A DNA stretch of 56,923 nt, filler included, from Circinaria calcarea (GCA_051942165.1; 6 parts of 6 records of this genome joined end to end with filler, not necessarily neighbours in it), one strand, 5' to 3'; shown: positions 19,015 to 28,418, counted from the first letter of the whole stretch. Notes: a model not told the origin generated them from the sequence alone. A program made the numbers and translations.

Positions 19015-22000
19015 TGTAAAACCTGCTTGCAGAGGCAGAGACAGAGAAAAAGAATCTTCTGTGTTAGATTTAATGTTTTCTAAGTTAACGGGCATCTCTG
19101 CTAAACTATTTTCAAATAGACTTATTAAAGGTACTATTATTAAAAAATATGCAAAATATAAAGCAGTTGATATTTGCCCAAATTCTATGAATGGAGACTC
19201 TACGTGTTTAGCTCCTAATTGCATTAAAATTAAAAAGTTACCAACAAAGATAAAAAATGCTATTTTACTTAAAGGTCTAAATTGTGTACCTCTAGATCTA
19301 GATAAATCTGTAAATGGCATGGCTAATAAAATTAAAATCGCAGAAAACATAGCAATAACTCCTAATAATTTATTAGGTATAGATCTTAATATAGCATAGA
19401 ATGGTAATAAGTATCATTCAGGTACTATAGCAGGTGGAGTTTGCATTGGGTTAGCCATTACATAATTTTCACTATCCCCTAAAAGATTCGGCATAAAAAA
19501 TACAATTACAGATAACACTAAGATAAATAAGAAGATAGTTATTAAATCTTTAAATATAAAATAAGGGGCAAATGGTAATCTATCATAATTATTTGATATA
19601 CCTAAAGGATTGTTTGAACCTGCACTATCATGTAATGCAATTAAGTGCATTAAAACCAAAGCTGCTAAAACAAAAGGTAAAACAAAATGTAAAGCAAAAA
19701 ATCTATTTAAAGTAGCATTGTTAACACTAAATCCTCCTCAAATAAATTCTACTATGTCTTGTCCTACTCATGGTATAGCACTCATTAAATTAGTAATAAC
19801 TGTTGCCAAATCTTTAATTTGCTAATTCTAGCTTAACGGTAGATTGGTTTAACCTCGCGTTTTACTTTATATGTTAAAAAAAAGCAAACCATGTGCAATA
19901 TACTCATTATATGGACCTTAGATCGAGATGATTGTAATTTAATACAGTATAAAGCCTTGTGTTACACACGAATAAAAAGAGTAACTTTTCTTCATTATGT
20001 AAAAAGATCCCGACTATACATTAAGCAGCATTTCAGCCACCCACCGATGGACTAGTCTGTAGCGATAGTTTACTCTACCGACGGTCTAAATGTAAAACAA
20101 ACATCTTTGACCGTTTTCATCAGTATTGCTATATGGTTAACAGTCAACCGAAGCAAGCGGTTGACCTCCCGCTTGGTCGAAGGAGAGTCTAAATTATCAG
20201 TAAAAATTACTTTAGAGATCACCATATAACTATGTAAAATTTTTATTTAGGTTAGACTATTTTGTATTTCATTTCAGGTATTATGTAAGGAGACACTATC
20301 GCTCTAAGATTGTTCATAGATTCTTTTCAAACGTAAATAACATATTGATCTTTACTCCCTGCTGACTGCACAGAAGCTTTAATGTTAAAATTATCATTTA
20401 ATACTACCACAAGTTTCATACAATCGTTATAAGTAAAAGAATGGGTGCAAAATTTAAAATCATTACCTCTTTTAGATCCATCGTGCATAATTCAAATAGC
20501 TAGAGCTAAAGGTGTTAAGTATTCACCAATACAGTCCGGTACATGCTTTATACCATCTTTATATCAGATATTATAGATTCAATTAAAACTAGTGTAAGTT
20601 CAAGATGTAAATCTTACGACTTTACGTAATTTACCTTTACTACCCAATCTTTGTAGAAGGACTGGTGTTTTTGGATTACAATAACCAGCTTCAGACATAA
20701 ATTTATGTAAATATAATAAATATTCCACATGAGAATCTTCTTGAGAAAAGGAAAATCTAGTCGCCACACCATTTAGTCTTTTTTCGCCATGAGCGTCCCC
20801 TAGAAGAGATCCGAATATAATAGATAGAATATTTTTATTATGCGGACCTATTCTATAAATACCTTTTAATCTACTTGCTTTATAACCAATCGTTTCTGAA
20901 GCAGAAACTGTGCTTATTATAAAAATAAAAATAAAAATAAAAAACCCACAATAAAAATTCCACATTTGAGGCTTTAAACTTAAACCTCATAGTGACATTT
21001 GTCCATATGGTAAAACATACAAACTTATTTTATATAACAATATAAAACTAGAATAACTTTTAATTCGTATATTCTATTGACCATTGTCAAATGTTTCGAC
21101 TGTACATTAAGCAGCATTTCAGCCACCCACCAGTGACCCAGTCTGTAGCGATCATTTATATAACCGACGGTCTCTATTATTATTTAATAATCTTTGACCG
21201 TTTTCACTAGCATTGCCAAATAAATAAATAAATAAATAAATAAATATATTTATTCAATAATCCTGTCGGATTATTCCACTTTATTTCCTGGACTTTAATC
21301 AAATAATTTGTCCAGGTCTATTAATAAAGATAAAGTTATATCTCGAACTAATAAACTATTTTTCTATAAAGATTACATAGAAATTTAAACTTGTGGGACT
21401 ATAACCTAAATAAAACTTCATATTTAAGCATTTTTAACTATTATACGTCTTTTTAACAACTTTTTTGTTAGCTTCAAAGGTTCTTCTTATGGTTTTCTCA
21501 TTACAATTTAAAGATTTAGCTCTTTCCATAATACTAGGATATTCACCATATACTGTATAATTTAAATTATATATTAGTAAGGATTTAGATTTTTTTTTCA
21601 TATTCAATAATGCTATTTCAGAATATAATGGCTTTTTATTAAAAAAAGGCACTTTTTCTCATTATTTGTAGAGTTTAGAGACTAAACTTTTTATCTTTAT
21701 TTAAATTCCCTATCCATATACGACGCTCGAGACTATAATCACACTTGATTTTAATTCTTGTTATTTCAGTATGTTTATAGCCAAAACTTGAACCGGCTTT
21801 TGTTAATATATTATAATTAGGTAATAAAGACTTTAAATCTAAATCTTCTAGATCTAATAATTTTTTTAGATTTTCTATATTTACTAGTTCGGGAATAATT
21901 ATAGTATAATAAATGCAAATACAGATATCTTATACTTTCTTACTGCTGTTTTAACAATCTTACTACCATTAAAATTAAACAAATGATTAGAAAATCTAGC

Positions 22001-22763
22001 ATAAAATTTATTTGTTGAAGCGGACCCTCTAGAGTAATATAAAGTAACTTTATTTAATGTTAAATAAATACCACTAAGGTTTAGAGTTTCTAATTTAATC
22101 TTTAGAGAGAGACAATCCAATTATAACTTTTCATAAACATAAACAGGGTTTAAGTTTTCTTTAAGTAAATCAGTCATTATTTGGCTTTTTTTCTAATTGT
22201 GTTACATGAAAACCTTCCATAATTAAAGGTGAGATTAAACTAGAATGATATCTTTTAGATATTAAATTTAATTTGTTAAGATTTATGCTTTTATACAATA
22301 ATTTATTATTATTACTATTGCTTGTCATATATGAATTATTTAATTTAGATCATTTTGGGCTATGTTTATAACCCAGAAAGGCTGTAGCTATCATTAATAT
22401 AAATATTACTGTACCTAGAGTTCAAACTAATGTTCTTGGAGCTTTATATGATCCATAGTATAATCCTCTACCTATATGTAAGTATACTAGGAAAAAGAAT
22501 GCAGATGCCGTGTTGGAATGTAAATAACGTAATAATCATCCATTATTTACATCACGCATTATATGTTCCACGGAATTAAATGCTTCTAATACACTAGGGT
22601 TGTAATGCATTGCTAGAGTTACACCTGTAATTATTTGTATAGCTAAACAAAACGCTAGTAAAGAACCGAAGTTTCAGAAATAACTTAGGTTGGATGGTTG
22701 TGGTGAGTCAATTAAATATGAATTAACCAATTTTAACAAGGGATGACTTTTAAATATTCTCAT
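19015..22763 (-). CDS. cob: Apocytochrome b; exons 22763-22371, 21019-20984 and 19806 to the contig end (3' end not seen)
   Basis: Reads [40 protein letters not shown] | [12 protein letters not shown] | [26 protein letters not shown]. The exons join in frame with TGA=Trp. Confidence 0.97.
19807..20983 (-). mobile_element. Group I intron (subgroup ID-like core) at cob position 429
   Basis: The upstream exon ends in U (GGT) and the intron ends in G. The core at about 20011-20130 reads GAAAACGGTCAAAG..GCTACAGACT..GGTGGGTGGCTGAAATGCTGCTTAATGTATAGTCG on the sense strand. Confidence 0.9.
20252..20983 (-). CDS. Intron-encoded double-motif LAGLIDADG homing endonuclease/maturase, in frame with cob exon 2, apparently intact (243 codons)
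   Basis: Motifs [11 protein letters not shown] and LALAIWIMHDG. The frame stays open through TGA=Trp codons to TAA at 20254-20252. Confidence 0.88.
21020..22370 (-). mobile_element. Group I intron (subgroup ID-like core) at cob position 393
   Basis: Exon 1 is exactly 393 nt and ends in U. The terminal G is at 21020. The core at about 21097-21217 closely matches the other intron core. Confidence 0.9.
21434..22370 (-). pseudogene. Degenerate GIY-YIG homing endonuclease with NUMOD-type repeats
   Basis: Remnants [44 protein letters not shown] and [20 protein letters not shown]. It begins in frame with exon 1 but has TAA stops and frameshifts. Confidence 0.85.
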
Positions 22764-22850
22764 TTTTTTTTTTTTATTTTTTGTTTTAATTTATTTTTTT
22801 TTTATTAATATTAATCTCGGGTAGTTTATTTCTCCGTTTACCCTTTCTTA
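22761..22850 (-). repeat. cob 5' leader plus start codon, copy 1 of an ~90-bp direct repeat
   Basis: On the + strand: cat(t)n attttttgttttaatttattt..tattaatattaatctcgggtagtttatttctccgtttacc. It matches 23651-23740. Confidence 0.9.
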
Positions 22851-23167
22851 AAATAGAAAATTATTATTTAGAATCTAGATATGTTTTATCTAAATAGAAA
22901 ATATATGCTTTTATTATAAAATATTACACACTAAGATTATACATCTGTGTTTTAATTAAAAAAAAAAGGATAACTTTTAAAGCTTCTTACCTCTTATTTA
23001 TCTCTCTCTCTCTCTAAAATTAACCTTTTTCGTTGTCACAACATTTTTTGTTGCTATTATACCACTAAAGAGTATATTAACGAAAAGTATTAATATGGTT
23101 TAGACTAAGGCTCTATTAATACCAAGCAAAAAAAAAAATGTAAAGTTGTTTAAAAATAGTTGAGCTA

Positions 23168-23653
23168 CTAGTCTGAATCAAATATATCAAAAGGTTGTTC
23201 ATCTAGTGAGGCGTAATCGTCTAATAAAGAACTTTCTTCTTTTTTTTCAGTTTCAACCTTTTCTAACTTTTCGAGATATTCCTTTGCTTCCTCTATTTCA
23301 TCTTTATATTCTTCTCTAATTTCTTCACTTTCACAATCTTCTTTAGCTTTTAGATTATTCTCTATAGTCTTCATATAAACTCATTTTTGGTCTTCACAAG
23401 ACATTTCATTATTAGGACTTGGCAAATCTTCTATATTTAGTTGTACATTAGGATCAGTGTTTTTTATTTCTTGCATATTAGTATAAAGTGCACTGTATTT
23501 TTCGGAATCTTCATATTCTTGACGATCTTTATCCTCTCTTTCTTTTATTTCTTGTATAAAAAGAGGCTCTTTAGATCTTCTTTCAAGTTCTTCAGTTATT
23601 GCTTCATTATCTTCGTTTAAATGGATATTAATTTCTTCTAGTTTTCTTTTCAT
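23168..23653 (-). CDS. Orphan acidic Glu/Asp/Lys-rich mitochondrial ORF, 161 aa
   Basis: Track ORFs 23381-23653 and 23168-23374 fuse in frame through TGA(Trp)-GTT-TAT. The protein ends SSLLDDYASLDEQPFDIFDSD-TAG. Confidence 0.75.
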
Positions 23654-23740
23654 TTTTTTTTTATTTTTTGTTTTAATTTATTTTTTTTATTAATATTGAT
23701 CTCGGGTAGTTTATTTCTCAGTTTACCGGCTTCTTGAAAG
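23651..23740 (-). repeat. Duplicated cob 5' leader plus ATG, copy 2, upstream of the acidic ORF
   Basis: On the + strand: cat(t)n attttttgttttaatttattt..tattaatattgatctcgggtagtttatttctcagtttacc. Confidence 0.9.
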
Positions 23741-25049
23741 AGAGAGTTATGCTGAATTTTAATATTTTAGATTTAAATATTACCTAAAAATATAATAGAA
23801 ATTATATCTAATGTGTCACACACACATTACTATTGTGATTTAGTGGTGACAAATAAGGAAAAGATTTTATTTTTTTTTTTTAAGTAAATAGCTCGCGATT
23901 TATCATTTTCAGATTAAGATGGTATTATATAATACCAGCTTAACATTTTATTTGTAGTTTATCTAGATTAATTTATAATACAGTATTTCTTATTATGTAT
24001 ATATAATATATAACTAGATTTAAAACTAATAGTTTTATATGGGAGACTCTCGATTCCTTATTTAAATTATTATATTTTTAGGTTAGCCTTAACCTTACAG
24101 TTATCGACACATGTGTGATGGGCAGGGCAAACAACATATACGTGGCGTACGGCAGCACAATTGTCACAATATTTCATTAATAACGAAAAAATTATTTATA
24201 CACATCTAGTAGAAAGAGAGTGTTTTATCCCAATCATAAACTTCGGTGGTATTAAACCAGTTTTCATGAACAGAATTAAGGTTAGAGGGGAGATCCCATT
24301 TACCAATTTGATCTAGAATTAAAAAAAAATAAATAACATGAAAATTATTTTTTTTTTATTTATTTTTTTTTACACTGCCTTTTAGAGGATTGTAAAGGTC
24401 TTTCTAAAATGAATTAATTAAACTAGTTAAATTAAACTAATTAAAATCTAAACAAATCTTAGATTTTTTATCTAAGTTACAATATTACTCTCTAGAGGTA
24501 AATTAACAGAGGGATTAACTTTAGCGAACATTAGATTAAATTTAACCAACTTTTTTTTTTTATCCAAGGATGATTTTTAAGATTATCATTATTATTTTAG
24601 AGAGAGAGAGAGAGAGAAAGGGTATTATGTTAAATAATGCTTTAGACAAGAGACTTATATCTAAAGCTCTAAAGGTAAATAAGTAAAACCTGTTGCAAAT
24701 TTAAAAAGAATTAAAAATATTTAATAAGCTATACTTTTATAGCATAGCTATAAGATATTAGTGATATCAAGCCGCATTCATGAATGTGGTGTTAAGCTGT
24801 ACACAGATTACGCTGTGTCGAATTACTTCTAGTATAATTAGGATTTAAGTTTGTTATCTGCAATTCGTTTTAACCCCATGCTTTTTTTTTACAACACAAA
24901 TGTTTGCCTCTCTATATGTTCCACGTGTATATTGAGTAAATTTATATCAACCGTGTGTAATGTTACCATATGCATATACATGATGCGTAACTTAGTACCA
25001 CGTTGATTCACTCGTTTCTGCAGTGTTGGACATAAATATTCTATTTTCC

Positions 25050-27950
25050 ATAAAAAAAAAATAAATTACTAAACTTGATATTATAATTGCAACTCTAAAA
25101 TTTAAAGTTTTACGAGTAGATAGTGAAGAATATTTAATTAGTGGGAGAAGAACTGAATCCCATATCGTAATTAAAGCTCTAAACCAAAAATTAGACTTCA
25201 AAGTAATAAACTGGGAGAGATATAACCTAGGCGAATACTGGGTAATGACACATAAATGAGCTTTGCATAGGTAAACTTACAAATGCTGGAGATTTAAGTA
25301 GATTGTTTAAGCAATCTTTAACTTAATTAACCAAACAATAATCTAAAAGAACTTTTATAGATATCTTTTTAGATTTCCAATCTTTGAATTCCCCTCTCTT
25401 CTATCGATTATAAATACTCTTATATTAAAGGTGAAAAAAAGATAATTTTAATATTAGGTATTGTTGAGTTGCGTAATTTTTATAATTAGAGTACTAGAGT
25501 TACTAATATATTACTTTATGATCATTATACTCTTTACATTAAAGTAAGGTATGATAAAGATAAGTTTCTAATGGTTGGAAATTAATTTGGTTTTATTTTT
25601 AGTTCAAGTAATGATCTATTGTACTTATATACTAGTATAAATGATAAATTAGAGATTATTTTGCGGAGTATTCCTTTAATGATGATAGTATAAACTATAT
25701 TATGATTACCTTTAGGAAAGTCGATATTGAATTACTTGCAGAATATAAACTTGATCTAAAAGATATAATTAGTACTGGTTTCACACAAAATACAGCAGGT
25801 GAACTTCATACACTTACTACTATTCCTATATCTTCTAATCTAGATAGTCTTATTAAACCGATTGATTGTACTATAAAAGATGGACTTATAACAAATATAC
25901 CTGTTGTCTACAAAGATAATACTTTAATTTATTAAATTAAATTGATAAACAAAATAAGTTTTTAGCTTTAAGAAAAAATAATGTTGATAAAATAAAAAGT
26001 TTTACTACGGATTATAAATTTTATCAAGTGGGAGGATCTAAACCTTATGTTTTATGTATAAAACAACAAGATTTTTTCATGGTAGAGAAAATATGCTATG
26101 CTATGAATGGAGTTCTCCTTACTATGGTTATTGATAAGATGTTACAAGATGGTAATATTGTTAGAAAATATAACAATTATGAATTACTTATTAGTGAAGG
26201 TAAAGTTATTAAGATTTAAAATATAATTTAAATCTTATACCTATTAAAAAAAAATAGAAGTTTTATCTGTCTAAAACCCTAATATAGGTGTTATTGATCT
26301 AGAAACTCTAGAAGATAATAATGGTAATTTTAAGATATATTGTTTAGGATTTAAAACAAATTTATATATTAAACCTGTAATATATTATGTTGATGAAAAA
26401 GCTAAGAATTATGATTAAATTGTATTAAAATTAGTTGATGAATTGTTAAGGAGTAGATACCAAGATATTAAGTTTTATTGTCATAACTTAGGAGGATTTG
26501 ATATTATTTTTATATTAAGTCTTTTACTAAGATATAATGAACATCATGATGATAAATATCATCTTAATTATATTTTAAGAGATAAGTAAATAATTAGAAT
26601 TACTATTTCTAAAAAGATTAATAACATTACACGTAAACTTTCTATTCAAGATAGTTATTGTATATTAAGCGAAAGTCAATTGTCTTTATCTAAAAAGTTT
26701 AAAGTGGATGCTATAAAAACTCCTTTTTCTTATCTTTTCTCAAAAGAGAATAATTTAAGTTCTAGAGGTACTACACCTGATATTTATTATTCTAAAAATA
26801 TGGATGTATTTAGCTATCAATTAATTTACGAAGATAATTGATCATTTAAAGAAGAGTCTATGAAATATCTTGAAAATGATCTGTTAGGTTTATATCAAAT
26901 TCTAACGAAAGCTAATAAATCATTTTTTATAGACTATGGTATTGATATTACAGATAGTTTAACAATATCATCTTTAGCTATGAAGGTTTTTCATAAAAAG
27001 TACTATAATAATATACCTTCTATTAGTAATACTAAAGTATATAGAGATATTAAAAGTGGATGTTACGGAGGTATTACTGAAGTATATAGACCTTATGGAG
27101 AAAATTTATATTATTATGATGTTAATAGTTTATATCCTTATGTAGCTTTAAATCCTATCCCTGGTATTCATTGTACAAGGGTAGAGTATATTAATCATAA
27201 TGTTTCTATTCATGATCTTTGCGGTTTTTATTTATGTGAAATAGAATGTGATAATAATTATCTAGGATTATTACCTTTTAGAGATAAAAGAGGACTTATA
27301 TTTCATATGGGAAAATGAAAAAGTTGATATTTTTCTGAAGAATTAAAATTTGCTTATGATAATGGTTATAAAATAAAAGTTCTAAAAGGATACTTAATAA
27401 AGAGTTAGATGTTTTCTAAATTATGTATTAGATATTTATAAAATTAAATCAAATGCTATCAATCCTCTCCAAAAATCTAGAGCTAAAAATTTACTTAATA
27501 ATTTGTCAGGTAGATTTGGTATATCTATATAAAAACCTATTACAGTGATTATGTATGAAAAGCAGTTTAATAAAATAAGTTATATGAACAAGGTGAATTC
27601 TTACATAGAATTACAGGATAATCAATATCTGGTTACTTACTATCCTAGTTTAGATTATGATATTATAAATAATTTAGGATTAGATCTAGTTAAAATTGCT
27701 AGTAAATATAGAGATAATGTAAGTAGTTACCATGATTATACTTCTGTTTGTATTTAAGCGGCTATTACAGCTTATGGTCTAATAAAGATCAGTAAATTGA
27801 AATTATTTATACTAAATAAAGGTGGAAGTATATATTATTCTGATACTAATAGTATAGTTACTGAGATAAAATTACCTGATTCTATGGTTAGTAGTAGTGA
27901 AATAGGTAAATTGAGATTGGAACATGTAATTGAGAGACTTAGAGTCTAAA
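25050..27950 (+). pseudogene. dpoB: Degenerate protein-primed family-B DNA polymerase of linear mitochondrial plasmid type; boundaries approximate
   Basis: Motifs occur in order: ExoI VIDLET (~26290), ExoII YCHNLGGFD (~26475), QDSY, KYLEND, YGGITEVY..YYYDVNSLYP, KNLLNNLSGRFG, AAITAYG, YYSDTNS and IGKLRLE. There are many TAA stops and frameshifts. Confidence 0.92.
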
Positions 27951-28418
27951 TTATATATAGAAAGGTATTTTACGGTGAGTTAGATAAACTAAAGGCAGAT
28001 GTTATTAAGCCTAATAGATCTAAAAATGAATGTAGTTTTATGGTCGGTTATCCCAATAGACCGAAACTTCTTTTTGATTAAGCAAAAAAAGCGCGATTAC
28101 AGAATCAAACTTTCGACTAGAAAATGCGTTCTCTCCCGTCGTCGAAAGGAAGAAAATTAGATGAGAATAAATGAGATTCTTTCATCCAAAGGTATCTTTC
28201 CTTCATAACGTCCCGACTAGGATTTTGGGATATGCCCTGTTCCCCCCCGTGCAATTTTCTTTAAGTTAAAAACAAAAAAGAAGATAACCTTAGCTTTAAA
28301 CAAAAACGTCTTTTGTTCTTCTCTACTAAACCTTAATTTTTATTAAGGTGGCCATCATTTTCGCTATATAAGCGGATTAGTCCAAAACTAGTTATCAACT
28401 GGTTGGCAGTCAGCCAGC

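What the first reader, a model, noticed from the sequence alone, without database searches (positions are those of the whole stretch)
21840..27870. Recurrent TATATA->TCTAGA (A>C / T>G in TATA context) signature in decaying mitochondrial DNA
Seen: conserved residues in two unrelated pseudogenes show the same apparent double change. GIY-YIG YYIGS reads YSRGS (TCT AGA, 22028-22033). In dpoB a YIG-like motif reads SRG (26761) and xIAK before motif B reads SRAK (27476). TDI-like reads TEI (GAG ATA, ~27863). By eye TCTAGA occurs 13 times in this 9.4-kb contig (19291, 19297, 21847, 22028, 22874, 23962, 24312, 24491, 25839, 26298, 26307, 26761, 27476). A rough composition estimate gives only a few expected. 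The longest dinucleotide runs are (TC)n/(AG)n (23001-23015, ~24599-24617), not (TA)n. Inference: the ancestral codons were TAT ATA, and a strand-symmetric context-specific transversion process acts here. Candidates are lesion-driven (TA photoproduct, 8-oxo-dGTP misincorporation) or a polymerase/repair defect. It is unlike RIP or deamination.
Basis: partly seen in the sequence, partly recalled or inferred. Interest (0 to 1): 0.72.

Follow-up and report, generated by a model that had tools for sequence, protein, structure and literature searches.

The report
TCTAGA excess in decaying fungal mtDNA
A fungal mitochondrial DNA piece carries more TCTAGA sites than its base composition predicts, but they arose in several different ways, so a special TATATA-to-TCTAGA mutation process is at most weakly hinted at.

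Summary
The sequence facts hold. The AT-rich mitochondrial piece 19015-28418 has 13 TCTAGA at the stated coordinates, against 3-5.5 expected from low-order Markov models. Two encode the conserved cob S-R-S-R. One encodes the ExoI D-L-E. One arose from a TTTAGA-type word by a transition. At 27476 only AGA is derived. At 26761 a 95%-identical relative reads S-Y-R-G, so AGA is older and TAT>TCT came later: two steps, not one double event. A>C/T>G changes are a minority of polarised substitutions (9/59, 3/35, 4/36). The single-hit words TATAGA/TCTATA are not enriched (15 vs 18.2), and relatives show no TCTAGA excess (40 vs 34-39). One hint remains. In this lineage A>C-type changes favour the TAT/ATA context: 5/171 vs 5/1067 sites, p=0.007. 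In cob alone it is 3/80 vs 0/458, p=0.003, and there is a second Y>S at 26791. My verdict is ordinary pseudogene decay plus composition, with a possible modest T[A>C]T bias. A technical artefact is unlikely but could not be tested on raw reads.

The parts
19015..19806 (-). cob last exon, running off the end of the piece; a functional gene
   Evidence: ORF under table 4. 80-87% DNA identity to relatives' cob. Exon end at 19806/19785 taken from intron-less joints.
19291..19302 (.). TCTAGATCTAGA, two TCTAGA sites encoding the conserved cob S-R-S-R; not derived from TATATA
   Evidence: 4 of 12 relatives read SRSRG (AGT AGA AGT AGA). 4 others use TCT AGA for the first S-R.
20255..21040 (-). intact LAGLIDADG intron ORF
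   Evidence: Pfam LAGLIDADG_2, E 1.1e-50.
21449..22177 (-). GIY-YIG/NUMOD1 homing-endonuclease relic in a cob intron, split over three reading frames
   Evidence: tblastn segments 22177-21890, 21893-21645 and 21637-21449. Pfam NUMOD1 E 6.2e-6; GIY-YIG E 0.061, below the cut-off. Homologues up to 86% identical. Terminal branch 0.27 against a median of 0.11.
21847..21852 (.). TCTAGA that arose from a TTTAGA-type word by a transition
   Evidence: private change at 21851, T>C on the - strand, consensus TTT>TCT.
22028..22033 (.). TCTAGA encoding S-R where homologues have Y-[I/V]; the best candidate for a TATATA (or TATGTA) origin
   Evidence: The relative in run X3 carries 3 extra GACCCTC copies behind 22022, and that unit includes the C at 22029.
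22385..22763 (-). cob exon 1 (start codon at 22763); holds two private T[A>C]T-type changes at 22418 (I>L) and 22677 (L>F)
   Evidence: Exon boundary inferred from the joints 21173>22385 and 19806>22369.
22874..22879 (.). non-coding TCTAGA inside the octamer ATCTAGAT; origin unknown
23001..23015 (+). (TC)7 run, one arm of a 36-nt inverted repeat with the (AG)9 run
   Evidence: (I5).
23962..23967 (.). non-coding TCTAGA. Position 23966 is G here and T (TCTATA) in contigs of runs X3 and X1; polarity unknown
   Evidence: table 3: X3 12.1 of 12.1, X1 4.3 of 16.3.
24312..24317 (.). non-coding TCTAGA; origin unknown
24491..24496 (.). non-coding TCTAGA inside CTCTAGAG; origin unknown. Its likeness to the 22028 site is chance
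   Evidence: 23 of 300 shuffles reach the alignment score.
24599..24617 (+). (AG)9 run
26275..27946 (+). dpoB relic (plasmid-type family B DNA polymerase) with in-frame stops and frameshifts; motif C reads DTN. The region from about 25650 may be its degenerate N-terminal part
   Evidence: Pfam DNA_pol_B_2, E 7.4e-52 and 5.4e-7. Homologues. Stops and frames. D>N at 27848, where 85 of 87 homologues have D.
25839..25844 (.). TCTAGA in the poorly conserved N-terminal dpoB part (aaT CTA GAt); origin unknown
26298..26303 (.). TCTAGA spanning the ExoI D-L-E codons (gaT CTA GAa); the residues are ancestral-like
   Evidence: D 70 of 72; L 28 and I 26 of 72; E 68 of 73.
26307..26312 (.). TCTAGA (acT CTA GAa) at a variable position where homologues have Y 36 and F 24 of 72; origin unclear
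26761..26766 (.). TCT AGA = S-R where homologues have Y-[I/V/K]. A 95%-identical relative reads Y-R, so the site was built in two steps
26791..26793 (+). a second window-specific Y>S (TCT); the relative P0280 and 45 of the homologues have Y
27476..27481 (.). TCT AGA before motif B. Only the AGA (R) is derived; S occurs in homologues
27863..27868 (+). GAG ATA (E-I) after motif C, where homologues mostly have D
   Evidence: D 46, N 18, E 7 of 86.

Best explanation
Piece 19015-28418 is fungal mitochondrial DNA. It holds a functional cob gene with two intron ORFs: an intact LAGLIDADG ORF and a frameshifted GIY-YIG relic. It also holds a degenerate plasmid-derived dpoB.

The TCTAGA excess is real but modest, and the sites have several origins. 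Some come from codon usage in conserved peptides (TCT AGA for S-R in cob; xxT CTA GAx for L-E or L-D in dpoB). Some come by transition from the abundant TTTAGA/TCTAAA pool. A few come from independent, stepwise substitutions on long, unconstrained pseudogene branches. The two 'Y-I-G to S-R-G' cases are coincident products of separate single-base changes, not a concerted TATATA>TCTAGA event.

A small excess of A>C at TAT (equivalently T>G at ATA) may exist in this lineage. It is a minor part of the substitution spectrum and is not needed to explain most of the sites.

Shown: the counts, the origins of 7 of the 13 sites, the stepwise history at 26761, and the spectrum. Inferred: that the remaining non-coding sites follow the same ordinary routes.
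For: Origins of the sites. The cob S-R-S-R is conserved in relatives. The ExoI D-L-E is conserved. Position 21851 changed by a transition from a TTT-type word. At 27476 the S column already holds S in homologues. P0280 (95% identical, 226 of 238 residues) reads S-Y-R-G at 26761, so AGA came before TCT.

Branch length. The GIY-YIG terminal branch is 0.27 changes per column, the longest of the 21 rows (median 0.11). That gives about 1.6 expected changes per hexamer.

Spectrum. A>C/T>G makes up 9 of 59 private changes in the GIY-YIG relic, inside the relatives' range of 0-14. It makes up 3 of 35 in the cob exons and 4 of 36 single-step changes at conserved dpoB columns, where A>G/T>C gives 11, including six K>R by AAA>AGA.

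Word counts. TATAGA+TCTATA occur 15 times vs 18.2 expected; TTTAGA+TCTAAA occur 43 times vs 20.9. At Markov order 3, 9.5 TCTAGA are expected.

Direction. Over runs X1, X2, X3 and X6, the window has A/T where contigs have C/G at 172 places, and the reverse at 171. Of the 8 well-supported recent differences that could be polarised as window-derived, 0 are A>C/T>G. The TCT/TAT trinucleotide ratio (1.75 relative to three other contexts) lies within the relatives' range of 0.89-1.82.
Against: Relatives do not share the excess: TCTAGA occurs 40 times vs 34-39 expected in 22 loci, and CTAG 309 vs 310. So composition common to the clade does not explain 13 vs 4.

The window's A>C-type changes are concentrated in the TAT/ATA context: 5/171 vs 5/1067, odds ratio 6.4, p 0.0067. 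The odds ratio is 2.6-7.9 over five parameter settings, and 0 of 22 relatives is as extreme in four of the five.

At TAT-context sites 5 of 9 changes are A>C-type, against 5 of 53 elsewhere, p 0.0036. Against P0280, 3 of 5 polarised window-derived residue changes need A>C or T>G, two of them TAT>TCT (p 0.022).

Words derivable from (TA)3 by two non-adjacent hits occur 114 times vs 71.5 expected in the window, but 672 vs 673 in relatives.
Confidence: 0.55

Rival explanations
1. This mitochondrial lineage has a genuine context-biased A:T>C:G substitution process at TAT/ATA. A possible cause is 8-oxo-dGTP inserted opposite template A by the mitochondrial polymerase, or a repair bias. It acts one base at a time. 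Over time it turns TAT into TCT and ATA into AGA, contributes several of the TCTAGA sites, and seeds the (TC)n and (AG)n runs.
For: The context tests. I>R or I>L changes by ATA>AGA or ATA>CTA at 27480, 22029 and 22418. G/T polymorphism inside TCTAGA at 23966 among close relatives. (TA)3 words are depleted (30 vs 39.8) while 2-hit and 3-hit derivatives are enriched (114 vs 71.5; 55 vs 11.9), unlike in relatives. The cob changes are all tolerable (synonymous, L>F, I>L), whereas in the relics conserved Tyr residues are hit; that fits real substitutions filtered by selection. 8-oxo-dGTP opposite template A gives A-T to C-G transversions with pol gamma in vitro (PMC2367704; abstract and passages read).
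Against: The numbers are small. A>C/T>G is only 11-15% of the private changes. Single-hit words are not enriched. There is no net direction in the transversion differences against close relatives (172 vs 171). 0 of the 8 polarised recent differences are of this type. The passages I searched in PMC2367704 report no sequence-context preference (0 occurrences of 'sequence context' or 'hot spot').
Confidence: 0.3
2. Technical artefact: systematic miscalls at TATATA in the assembly that the window comes from.
For: It could not be excluded directly. No public run holds more than 0.19 of the sampled words, so the source reads were not seen. Several of the changes are private to the window when compared with a 95% relative.
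Against: Independent metagenome contigs agree with parts of the sites. The tandem unit GACCCTC in run X3 includes the C at 22029. In X1 the majority of the depth at 23966 reads G, as the window does. P0280, from another assembly, already has the R (AGA) at 26764. 16 TATATA remain untouched. In cob no conserved residue is destroyed.
Confidence: 0.05
3. TCTAGA, or the longer palindrome ATCTAGAT, is a functional or mobile sequence element (a protein-binding, processing or recombination site, or a small palindromic insert) that spreads or is kept by selection.
For: ATCTAGAT occurs 4 times vs 0.41-0.77 expected at orders 0-2. TCTAGAGG plus its complement occurs 4 times vs 0.1-0.3. GATCTAGA plus its complement occurs 5 times vs 0.3-0.6. 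Two ATCTAGAT copies lie upstream of ORFs on the - strand (22873, 23961).
Against: The flanks of the 13 sites share at most 12 of 24 positions, so there is no common element. At order 3 the ATCTAGAT expectation is 1.38 (p 0.05). Several copies lie inside coding sequence and have a codon explanation. The site at 23962 is not conserved among close relatives. Relatives show no excess.
Confidence: 0.05

Closest known systems
A:T>C:G transversions from 8-oxo-dGTP misincorporation opposite template A (MutT-type or oxidised-pool signature; pol gamma in vitro, PMC2367704)
   Same: It has the same base change (A>C / T>G), is strand-symmetric in outcome, and is plausible in mitochondria. Source: abstract and passages read.
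   Different: In that system A:T>C:G dominates the spectrum; here it is 11-15% of polarised changes. I found no TAT/ATA context preference in the passages I searched in that paper. The context preference of cancer signature SBS17b (CTT) is recalled from memory, not from a call, and it differs from ATA.
Degenerate homing-endonuclease ORFs and integrated linear-plasmid dpoB relics in fungal mitogenomes
   Same: The GIY-YIG/NUMOD1 ORF in a cob group I intron and the DNA_pol_B_2 gene, both with frameshifts, stops and lost catalytic residues, are the usual decay products. Papers on dpoB and plasmid insertions were seen only as search listings (PMC4019555, PMC11277600, PMC4779610).
   Different: Nothing unusual apart from the coincident S-R replacements.
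RIP (repeat-induced point mutation) of filamentous fungi
   Same: It is a context-dependent mutation process acting on non-functional DNA in fungi (recalled from memory).
   Different: RIP makes C>T at CpA in duplicated nuclear DNA. Here C>T/G>A is 5 of 59 and the changes in question are transversions at A:T pairs in mtDNA.
Palindromic GC-rich mobile clusters of fungal mtDNA (yeast GC clusters, Neurospora PstI palindromes; recalled from memory)
   Same: A short palindrome containing a restriction site recurs in an AT-rich mitogenome. A GC-rich 7-mer (GACCCTC) next to the 22028 site varies in copy number in a relative.
   Different: The sites share no flanks and no longer element. The sites are AT-rich outside the hexamer, and many are explained by codons.

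Membership tests
Oxidised-nucleotide (8-oxo-dGTP / MutT-like) A:T>C:G mutational signature | A:T>C:G is the predominant substitution class | tested here: not met
   9 of 59 (GIY-YIG relic), 3 of 35 (cob), 4 of 36 (dpoB), and 16 of 112 / 15 of 141 / 9 of 67 (pile-up). A>G/T>C is the largest class.
Oxidised-nucleotide (8-oxo-dGTP / MutT-like) A:T>C:G mutational signature | Net gain of G:C at A:T sites in the affected lineage compared with its relatives | tested here: not met
   Window A/T vs contig C/G at 172 places, and the reverse at 171, summed over runs X1, X2, X3 and X6. The contigs may mix several relatives.
   Compatible at 22028, where 10 of 26 relatives read TAT ATA and the rest TAT GTA, TAC GTG, TAT ATT or TAC ATT, but the nearest protein has V. 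Half met at 26761 and 27476. Not met at 19291, 19297, 21847 and 26298. Six sites have no alignable relative.
5/171 vs 5/1067, p 0.0067. cob alone 3/80 vs 0/458, p 0.0032. GIY-YIG relic 3/52 vs 6/349, p 0.098. Relatives pooled show no effect.
   15 observed vs 18.2 expected. An intermediate-like state (Y-R) is inferred from the protein of relative P0280 at 26761.
   No run holds more than 0.19 of the words. Read laying showed only 40 of 780 differences.
GIY-YIG homing endonuclease (PF01541) with NUMOD1 | Intact GIY...YIG motifs in a continuous ORF | tested here: not met
   YIG reads SRG. Pfam E 0.061 is below the cut-off. Three reading frames are needed. It is a relic of the family, not a working member.
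DNA_pol_B_2 (PF03175), plasmid-type dpoB | Continuous ORF with ExoI-III and motifs A, B and C (DTD) intact | tested here: not met
   The Pfam match is strong (E 7.4e-52), but there are in-frame stops and frame changes, and motif C reads DTN where 85 of 87 homologues have D. It is a relic.
Mobile palindromic element | The copies share sequence beyond the core palindrome | tested here: not met
   The best pair shares 12 of 24 flank positions. The 22028/24491 likeness is reached by 23 of 300 shuffles.

The most novel reading that the evidence does not exclude
A clade of soil- and rock-dwelling fungi carries a mitochondrial mutational bias that specifically converts T[A]T to T[C]T (equivalently A[T]A to A[G]A). 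The bias is visible as repeated Tyr>Ser and Ile>Arg/Leu replacements in dead genes and as tolerated changes in cob. It would also explain the erosion of (TA)n into TCTAGA-type words and (TC)n/(AG)n runs. That would be a natural, context-specific A:T>C:G signature in organelle DNA, possibly from oxidised dGTP or UV-related damage.
Probability: 0.3. Interest if true: 0.55.

Novelty: already known. Interest (0 to 1): 0.3.

Why it matters
If the TAT-context A>C bias were real, it would be a rare natural example of a context-specific transversion signature in mitochondrial DNA. It could point to an identifiable cause such as the oxidised nucleotide pool, the polymerase or repair. It would also matter for models of AT-rich organelle genome evolution and for dating pseudogenes. 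As the evidence stands, the window mainly shows ordinary decay of a homing-endonuclease gene and a plasmid-derived polymerase gene. It also shows how a striking motif coincidence can arise from codon usage, an abundant neighbouring word and long neutral branches.

Tried and rejected
- Whole genome: none is held, so there was no mitogenome-wide or nuclear-genome test beyond this window. The five GC-rich pieces show 7 TCTAGA vs 11-13 expected.
- Raw-read check: 18 runs were listed and none holds more than 0.19 of the words. I laid X1, X2, X3 and X6. They hold relatives, not the source, and only 40 of 780 letter differences were printed. The state at most TCTAGA sites in the relatives therefore stays unseen.
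- Ectopic conversion or a second GIY-YIG copy at 24491: the local alignment score of 27 is reached by 23 of 300 shuffles, and tblastn with 6 homologues finds no further copy. Rejected.
- Shared mobile element: the flanks match at no more than 12 of 24 positions. Rejected.
- Strict context test that required conserved neighbours: no events were left, 0/29 vs 0/169. Uninformative.
- Trinucleotide ratios: the window lies within the relatives' range. No unique signal.
- dpoB relatives in viral contigs: 1 weak locus. No use.
- Earlier findings of this scan: none. Cluster names: none.
- tRNA and Rfam scans of the piece: 0 hits.
I built only a tree.
- Literature: searches were seen as listings only. 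None concerns TCTAGA or a TAT-context A>C signature in fungal mtDNA, and these three searches do not show that nothing is in print. I read passages of PMC2367704.

Full report
WHAT THE WINDOW IS. N-runs split the 56,923-base window into six pieces of about 9.4 kb. Piece 3 (19015-28418) has GC 0.267. The other five have GC 0.469-0.490. Under table 4, piece 3 carries the following:
- cob on the - strand, with its last exon at 19015-19806 and exon 1 ending at the start codon at 22763;
- an intact LAGLIDADG ORF (20255-21040; Pfam E 1.1e-50);
- a GIY-YIG/NUMOD1 relic at 21449-22177, which needs three reading frames (tblastn; NUMOD1 E 6.2e-6; GIY-YIG E 0.061, below the cut-off);
- a 161-residue acidic ORF with no family match;
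- a dpoB relic at 26275-27946 (DNA_pol_B_2, E 7.4e-52) with in-frame stops and frame changes.
No tRNA gene and no Rfam family was found in the piece. No whole genome is held for this window.

CHECK OF THE OBSERVATION. All 13 TCTAGA coordinates are right. The five other pieces hold 7 sites in 47,019 b, against 11-13 expected. In piece 3 the expectation is 3.0, 4.0, 5.5, 9.5 and 10.3 for Markov orders 0-4. The Poisson p values are 1.7e-5, 2.7e-4, 4.7e-3, 0.16 and 0.24, and TCTAGA ranks 8, 7, 17, 350 and 333 among the 4096 hexamers. Corrected for the 64 palindromic hexamers, the order-1 p is 0.018. Corrected for all 2080 strand-symmetric hexamers it is 0.57.

The sub-words are also raised. CTAG occurs 47 times vs 31 expected, and TCTA 90 and TAGA 92 vs about 70. 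The longest dinucleotide runs are (TC)7 at 23001 and (AG)9 at 24599, while (TA) never exceeds 8 nt. In 22 non-duplicate loci of relatives (about 72% DNA identity in the intron ORF, 80-87% in the cob exons), TCTAGA occurs 40 times vs 34-39 expected and CTAG 309 vs 310. The excess is therefore specific to this sequence, but it is modest.

THE CONSERVED-MOTIF SITES.
- GIY-YIG: the 120 listed homologues (of 233 found) read D-[Y/F]-Y-[I/V]-G-S. Y is present in 120 of 120, followed by I in 93 and V in 27. The window reads Y-Y-S-R-G-S. In the DNA of 26 relatives the two codons are TAT ATA (10 loci), TAT ATT, TAC ATT, TAC ATA, TAT GTA or TAC GTG. The closest protein, P0387 (86% identical), has D-Y-Y-V-G. 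TATATA is thus a possible ancestor but not a certain one.
- dpoB at 26761: of 113 aligned homologues (150 examined), 107 have Y. The next residue is I 37, V 28, K 19, E 7, L 5, T 4, S 3, R 3. A protein from another assembly, P0280 (226 of 238 residues identical), reads S-Y-R-G at this place. The Arg codon is therefore older than the split of the two lineages, and Tyr>Ser is recent and private to the window. The 'double change' is two events at different times.
- dpoB at 27476: the S column is variable in homologues (A 16, L 13, Q 11, S 10, T 10 ...). Only the R is derived, from I 52, L 15, V 10, M 8 of 97.
- 27863: the window has E where homologues have D 46, N 18, E 7 of 86.

ORIGINS OF THE OTHER SITES.
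- 19291 and 19297 form TCTAGATCTAGA, which encodes the cob peptide S-R-S-R-G. Four of 12 aligned relatives have the same peptide, spelt AGT AGA AGT AGA. Four others spell the first S-R as TCT AGA.
- 26298 spans the ExoI D-L-E codons (D 70 of 72; L 28 and I 26 of 72; E 68 of 73).
- 21847 differs from the relatives' consensus by a transition at 21851 (TTT>TCT on the - strand).
- 23962 is polymorphic. Contigs of run X3 (12.1 of 12.1 depth) and part of run X1 (4.3 of 16.3) read T at 23966, which gives TCTATA. The polarity is unknown.
- 22874, 24312, 24491, 25839 and 26307 could not be polarised, because no relative aligns beyond 22810.

SUBSTITUTION SPECTRUM. I counted changes private to the window at columns where at least 80% of the relatives agree. 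In the GIY-YIG relic there are 59 such changes: A>C/T>G 9, A>G/T>C 20, A>T/T>A 19, C>A/G>T 5, C>G 1 and C>T/G>A 5. The same count on each relative gives 0-14 A>C/T>G changes. In the cob exons there are 35, of which 3 are A>C/T>G. In dpoB, at 147 columns conserved at 70% or more, 16 residues differ; 15 of these need one base change and 2 of those are A>C/T>G. At the 50% level there are 36 single-step changes: 4 are A>C/T>G and 11 are A>G/T>C, including six K>R by AAA>AGA. A>C/T>G is therefore a minor class.

The terminal branch of the window in the intron-ORF tree is 0.27 changes per column, the longest of the 21 rows (median 0.11). Two or more changes inside one hexamer are thus not rare.

TTTAGA/TCTAAA, which reaches TCTAGA by a transition, is enriched: 43 vs 20.9, p 1.5e-5.

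Differences between the window and the metagenome contigs are balanced in direction. The window has A/T where contigs have C/G at 56+48+40+28 = 172 places, and the reverse at 54+39+45+33 = 171. Of the 40 best-supported differences printed, 8 could be polarised as window-derived, and none of those is A>C/T>G.

THE RESIDUAL SIGNAL. I tested it on a pile-up of 22 relatives over 19107-22794 (2553 positions with at least 7 relatives). The window has 5 such changes at 171 TAT/ATA-context sites and 5 at 1067 other A/T sites (odds ratio 6.4, p 0.0067). Pooled relatives have 26/2528, about 1%, like the other contexts. Over five parameter settings the odds ratio is 2.6-7.9 (p 0.004-0.24), and no relative is as extreme in four of the five.

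The GIY-YIG relic alone gives 3/52 vs 6/349, p 0.098.

Against P0280, five residue differences are window-derived by outgroup. Two are Y>S by TAT>TCT (26761 and, newly, 26791). One is F>C by T>G. One is G>S by G>A. One is I>M, which needs either A>G or T>G.

Words derivable from (TA)3 by two or three non-adjacent hits are enriched in the window (114 vs 71.5 and 55 vs 11.9, the latter mostly the two long runs). In relatives they are not, or are less so (672 vs 673 and 138 vs 92). (TA)3 itself is depleted in the window (30 vs 39.8) and enriched in relatives (803 vs 683). The TCT/TAT trinucleotide ratio, however, is within the relatives' range.

ARTEFACT? The source reads could not be seen. Independent assemblies support parts of the sites. 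The relative in run X3 has three extra copies of GACCCTC behind 22022, a unit that contains the C at 22029. Most of the X1 depth at 23966 reads G, as the window does. P0280 already has Arg at 26764. The cob changes are all tolerable, whereas conserved Tyr residues are hit only in the dead genes. That pattern is expected of real substitutions filtered by selection. This last point is an inference.

OTHER IDEAS TESTED. The flanks of the 13 sites share at most 12 of 24 positions. The likeness of the 22028 and 24491 sites is reached by 23 of 300 shuffles, and no further GIY-YIG copy exists in the piece. There is therefore no mobile element and no conversion donor. The longer palindromes are nominally enriched (ATCTAGAT 4 vs 0.41-1.38), but these tests are post hoc and the words partly lie in coding sequence.

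MECHANISM AND VERDICT. The best-supported reading (0.55) is that the sites have mixed, ordinary origins: codon usage in conserved peptides, transitions from an abundant neighbouring word, and independent stepwise hits on long neutral branches. A genuine single-base T[A>C]T bias in this lineage (0.3) is suggested by several small, partly independent counts. It would fit 8-oxo-dGTP misinsertion opposite template A, which pol gamma performs in vitro (PMC2367704; abstract and passages read). That paper's searched passages report no context effect, and here the class is not predominant. A concerted TATATA>TCTAGA event is contradicted at 26761. A technical artefact (0.05) and a functional or mobile palindrome (0.05) are unlikely.

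The relics themselves are ordinary members of known kinds. The signature claim remains unproven, and its interest is low to moderate.

Noticed in passing
window 22757-22842 and 23642-23727; ORF 23171-23653 (-): The 86-nt leader just upstream of the cob start codon is duplicated (81% identity) upstream of a 161-residue, very acidic Glu/Asp/Lys-rich ORF with no Pfam match. Contigs of four metagenome runs cover this region at roughly 94-97% identity, so relatives keep it.
   Followed up: partly
window 22988-23023 and 24589-24624: A 36-nt inverted repeat (75% complementary) carries the (TC)7 and (AG)9 runs. It brackets 1565 nt that contain the acidic ORF and the duplicated leader. This may be an inversion-prone or inserted segment.
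   Followed up: no
window 20011-20087 and 21097-21173: A 77-nt, relatively GC-rich direct repeat (84% identity), with one copy near the downstream part of each cob intron. Similar copies occur at several places in relatives' loci (L005, L014, L016, L019). It is probably a conserved intron core segment, although Rfam gave no group I intron hit.
   Followed up: partly
window 22022-22029: A relative in run X3 has three additional tandem copies of the 7-mer GACCCTC directly beside the TCTAGA at 22028. This is a small GC-rich microsatellite inside the dead GIY-YIG gene.
   Followed up: no
window 19785-22385: Intron presence and absence vary among relatives. Contigs join 19785>20984, 19806>22369 and 21173>22385, so they lack the LAGLIDADG intron, both introns, or the GIY-YIG ORF part.
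   Followed up: no
window 26456, 26597, 27089, 27711, 27915, 27936: There are six Lys>Arg replacements by AAA>AGA at dpoB columns conserved in homologues. AGA is therefore gained more often by this transition than by ATA>AGA.
   Followed up: partly
window about 27392 and P0280: The dpoB relic of a 95%-identical relative runs into the same early stop after ...ELDVF, so the gene was already dead before the two lineages split. The window has a further small deletion and frame change just upstream.
   Followed up: partly
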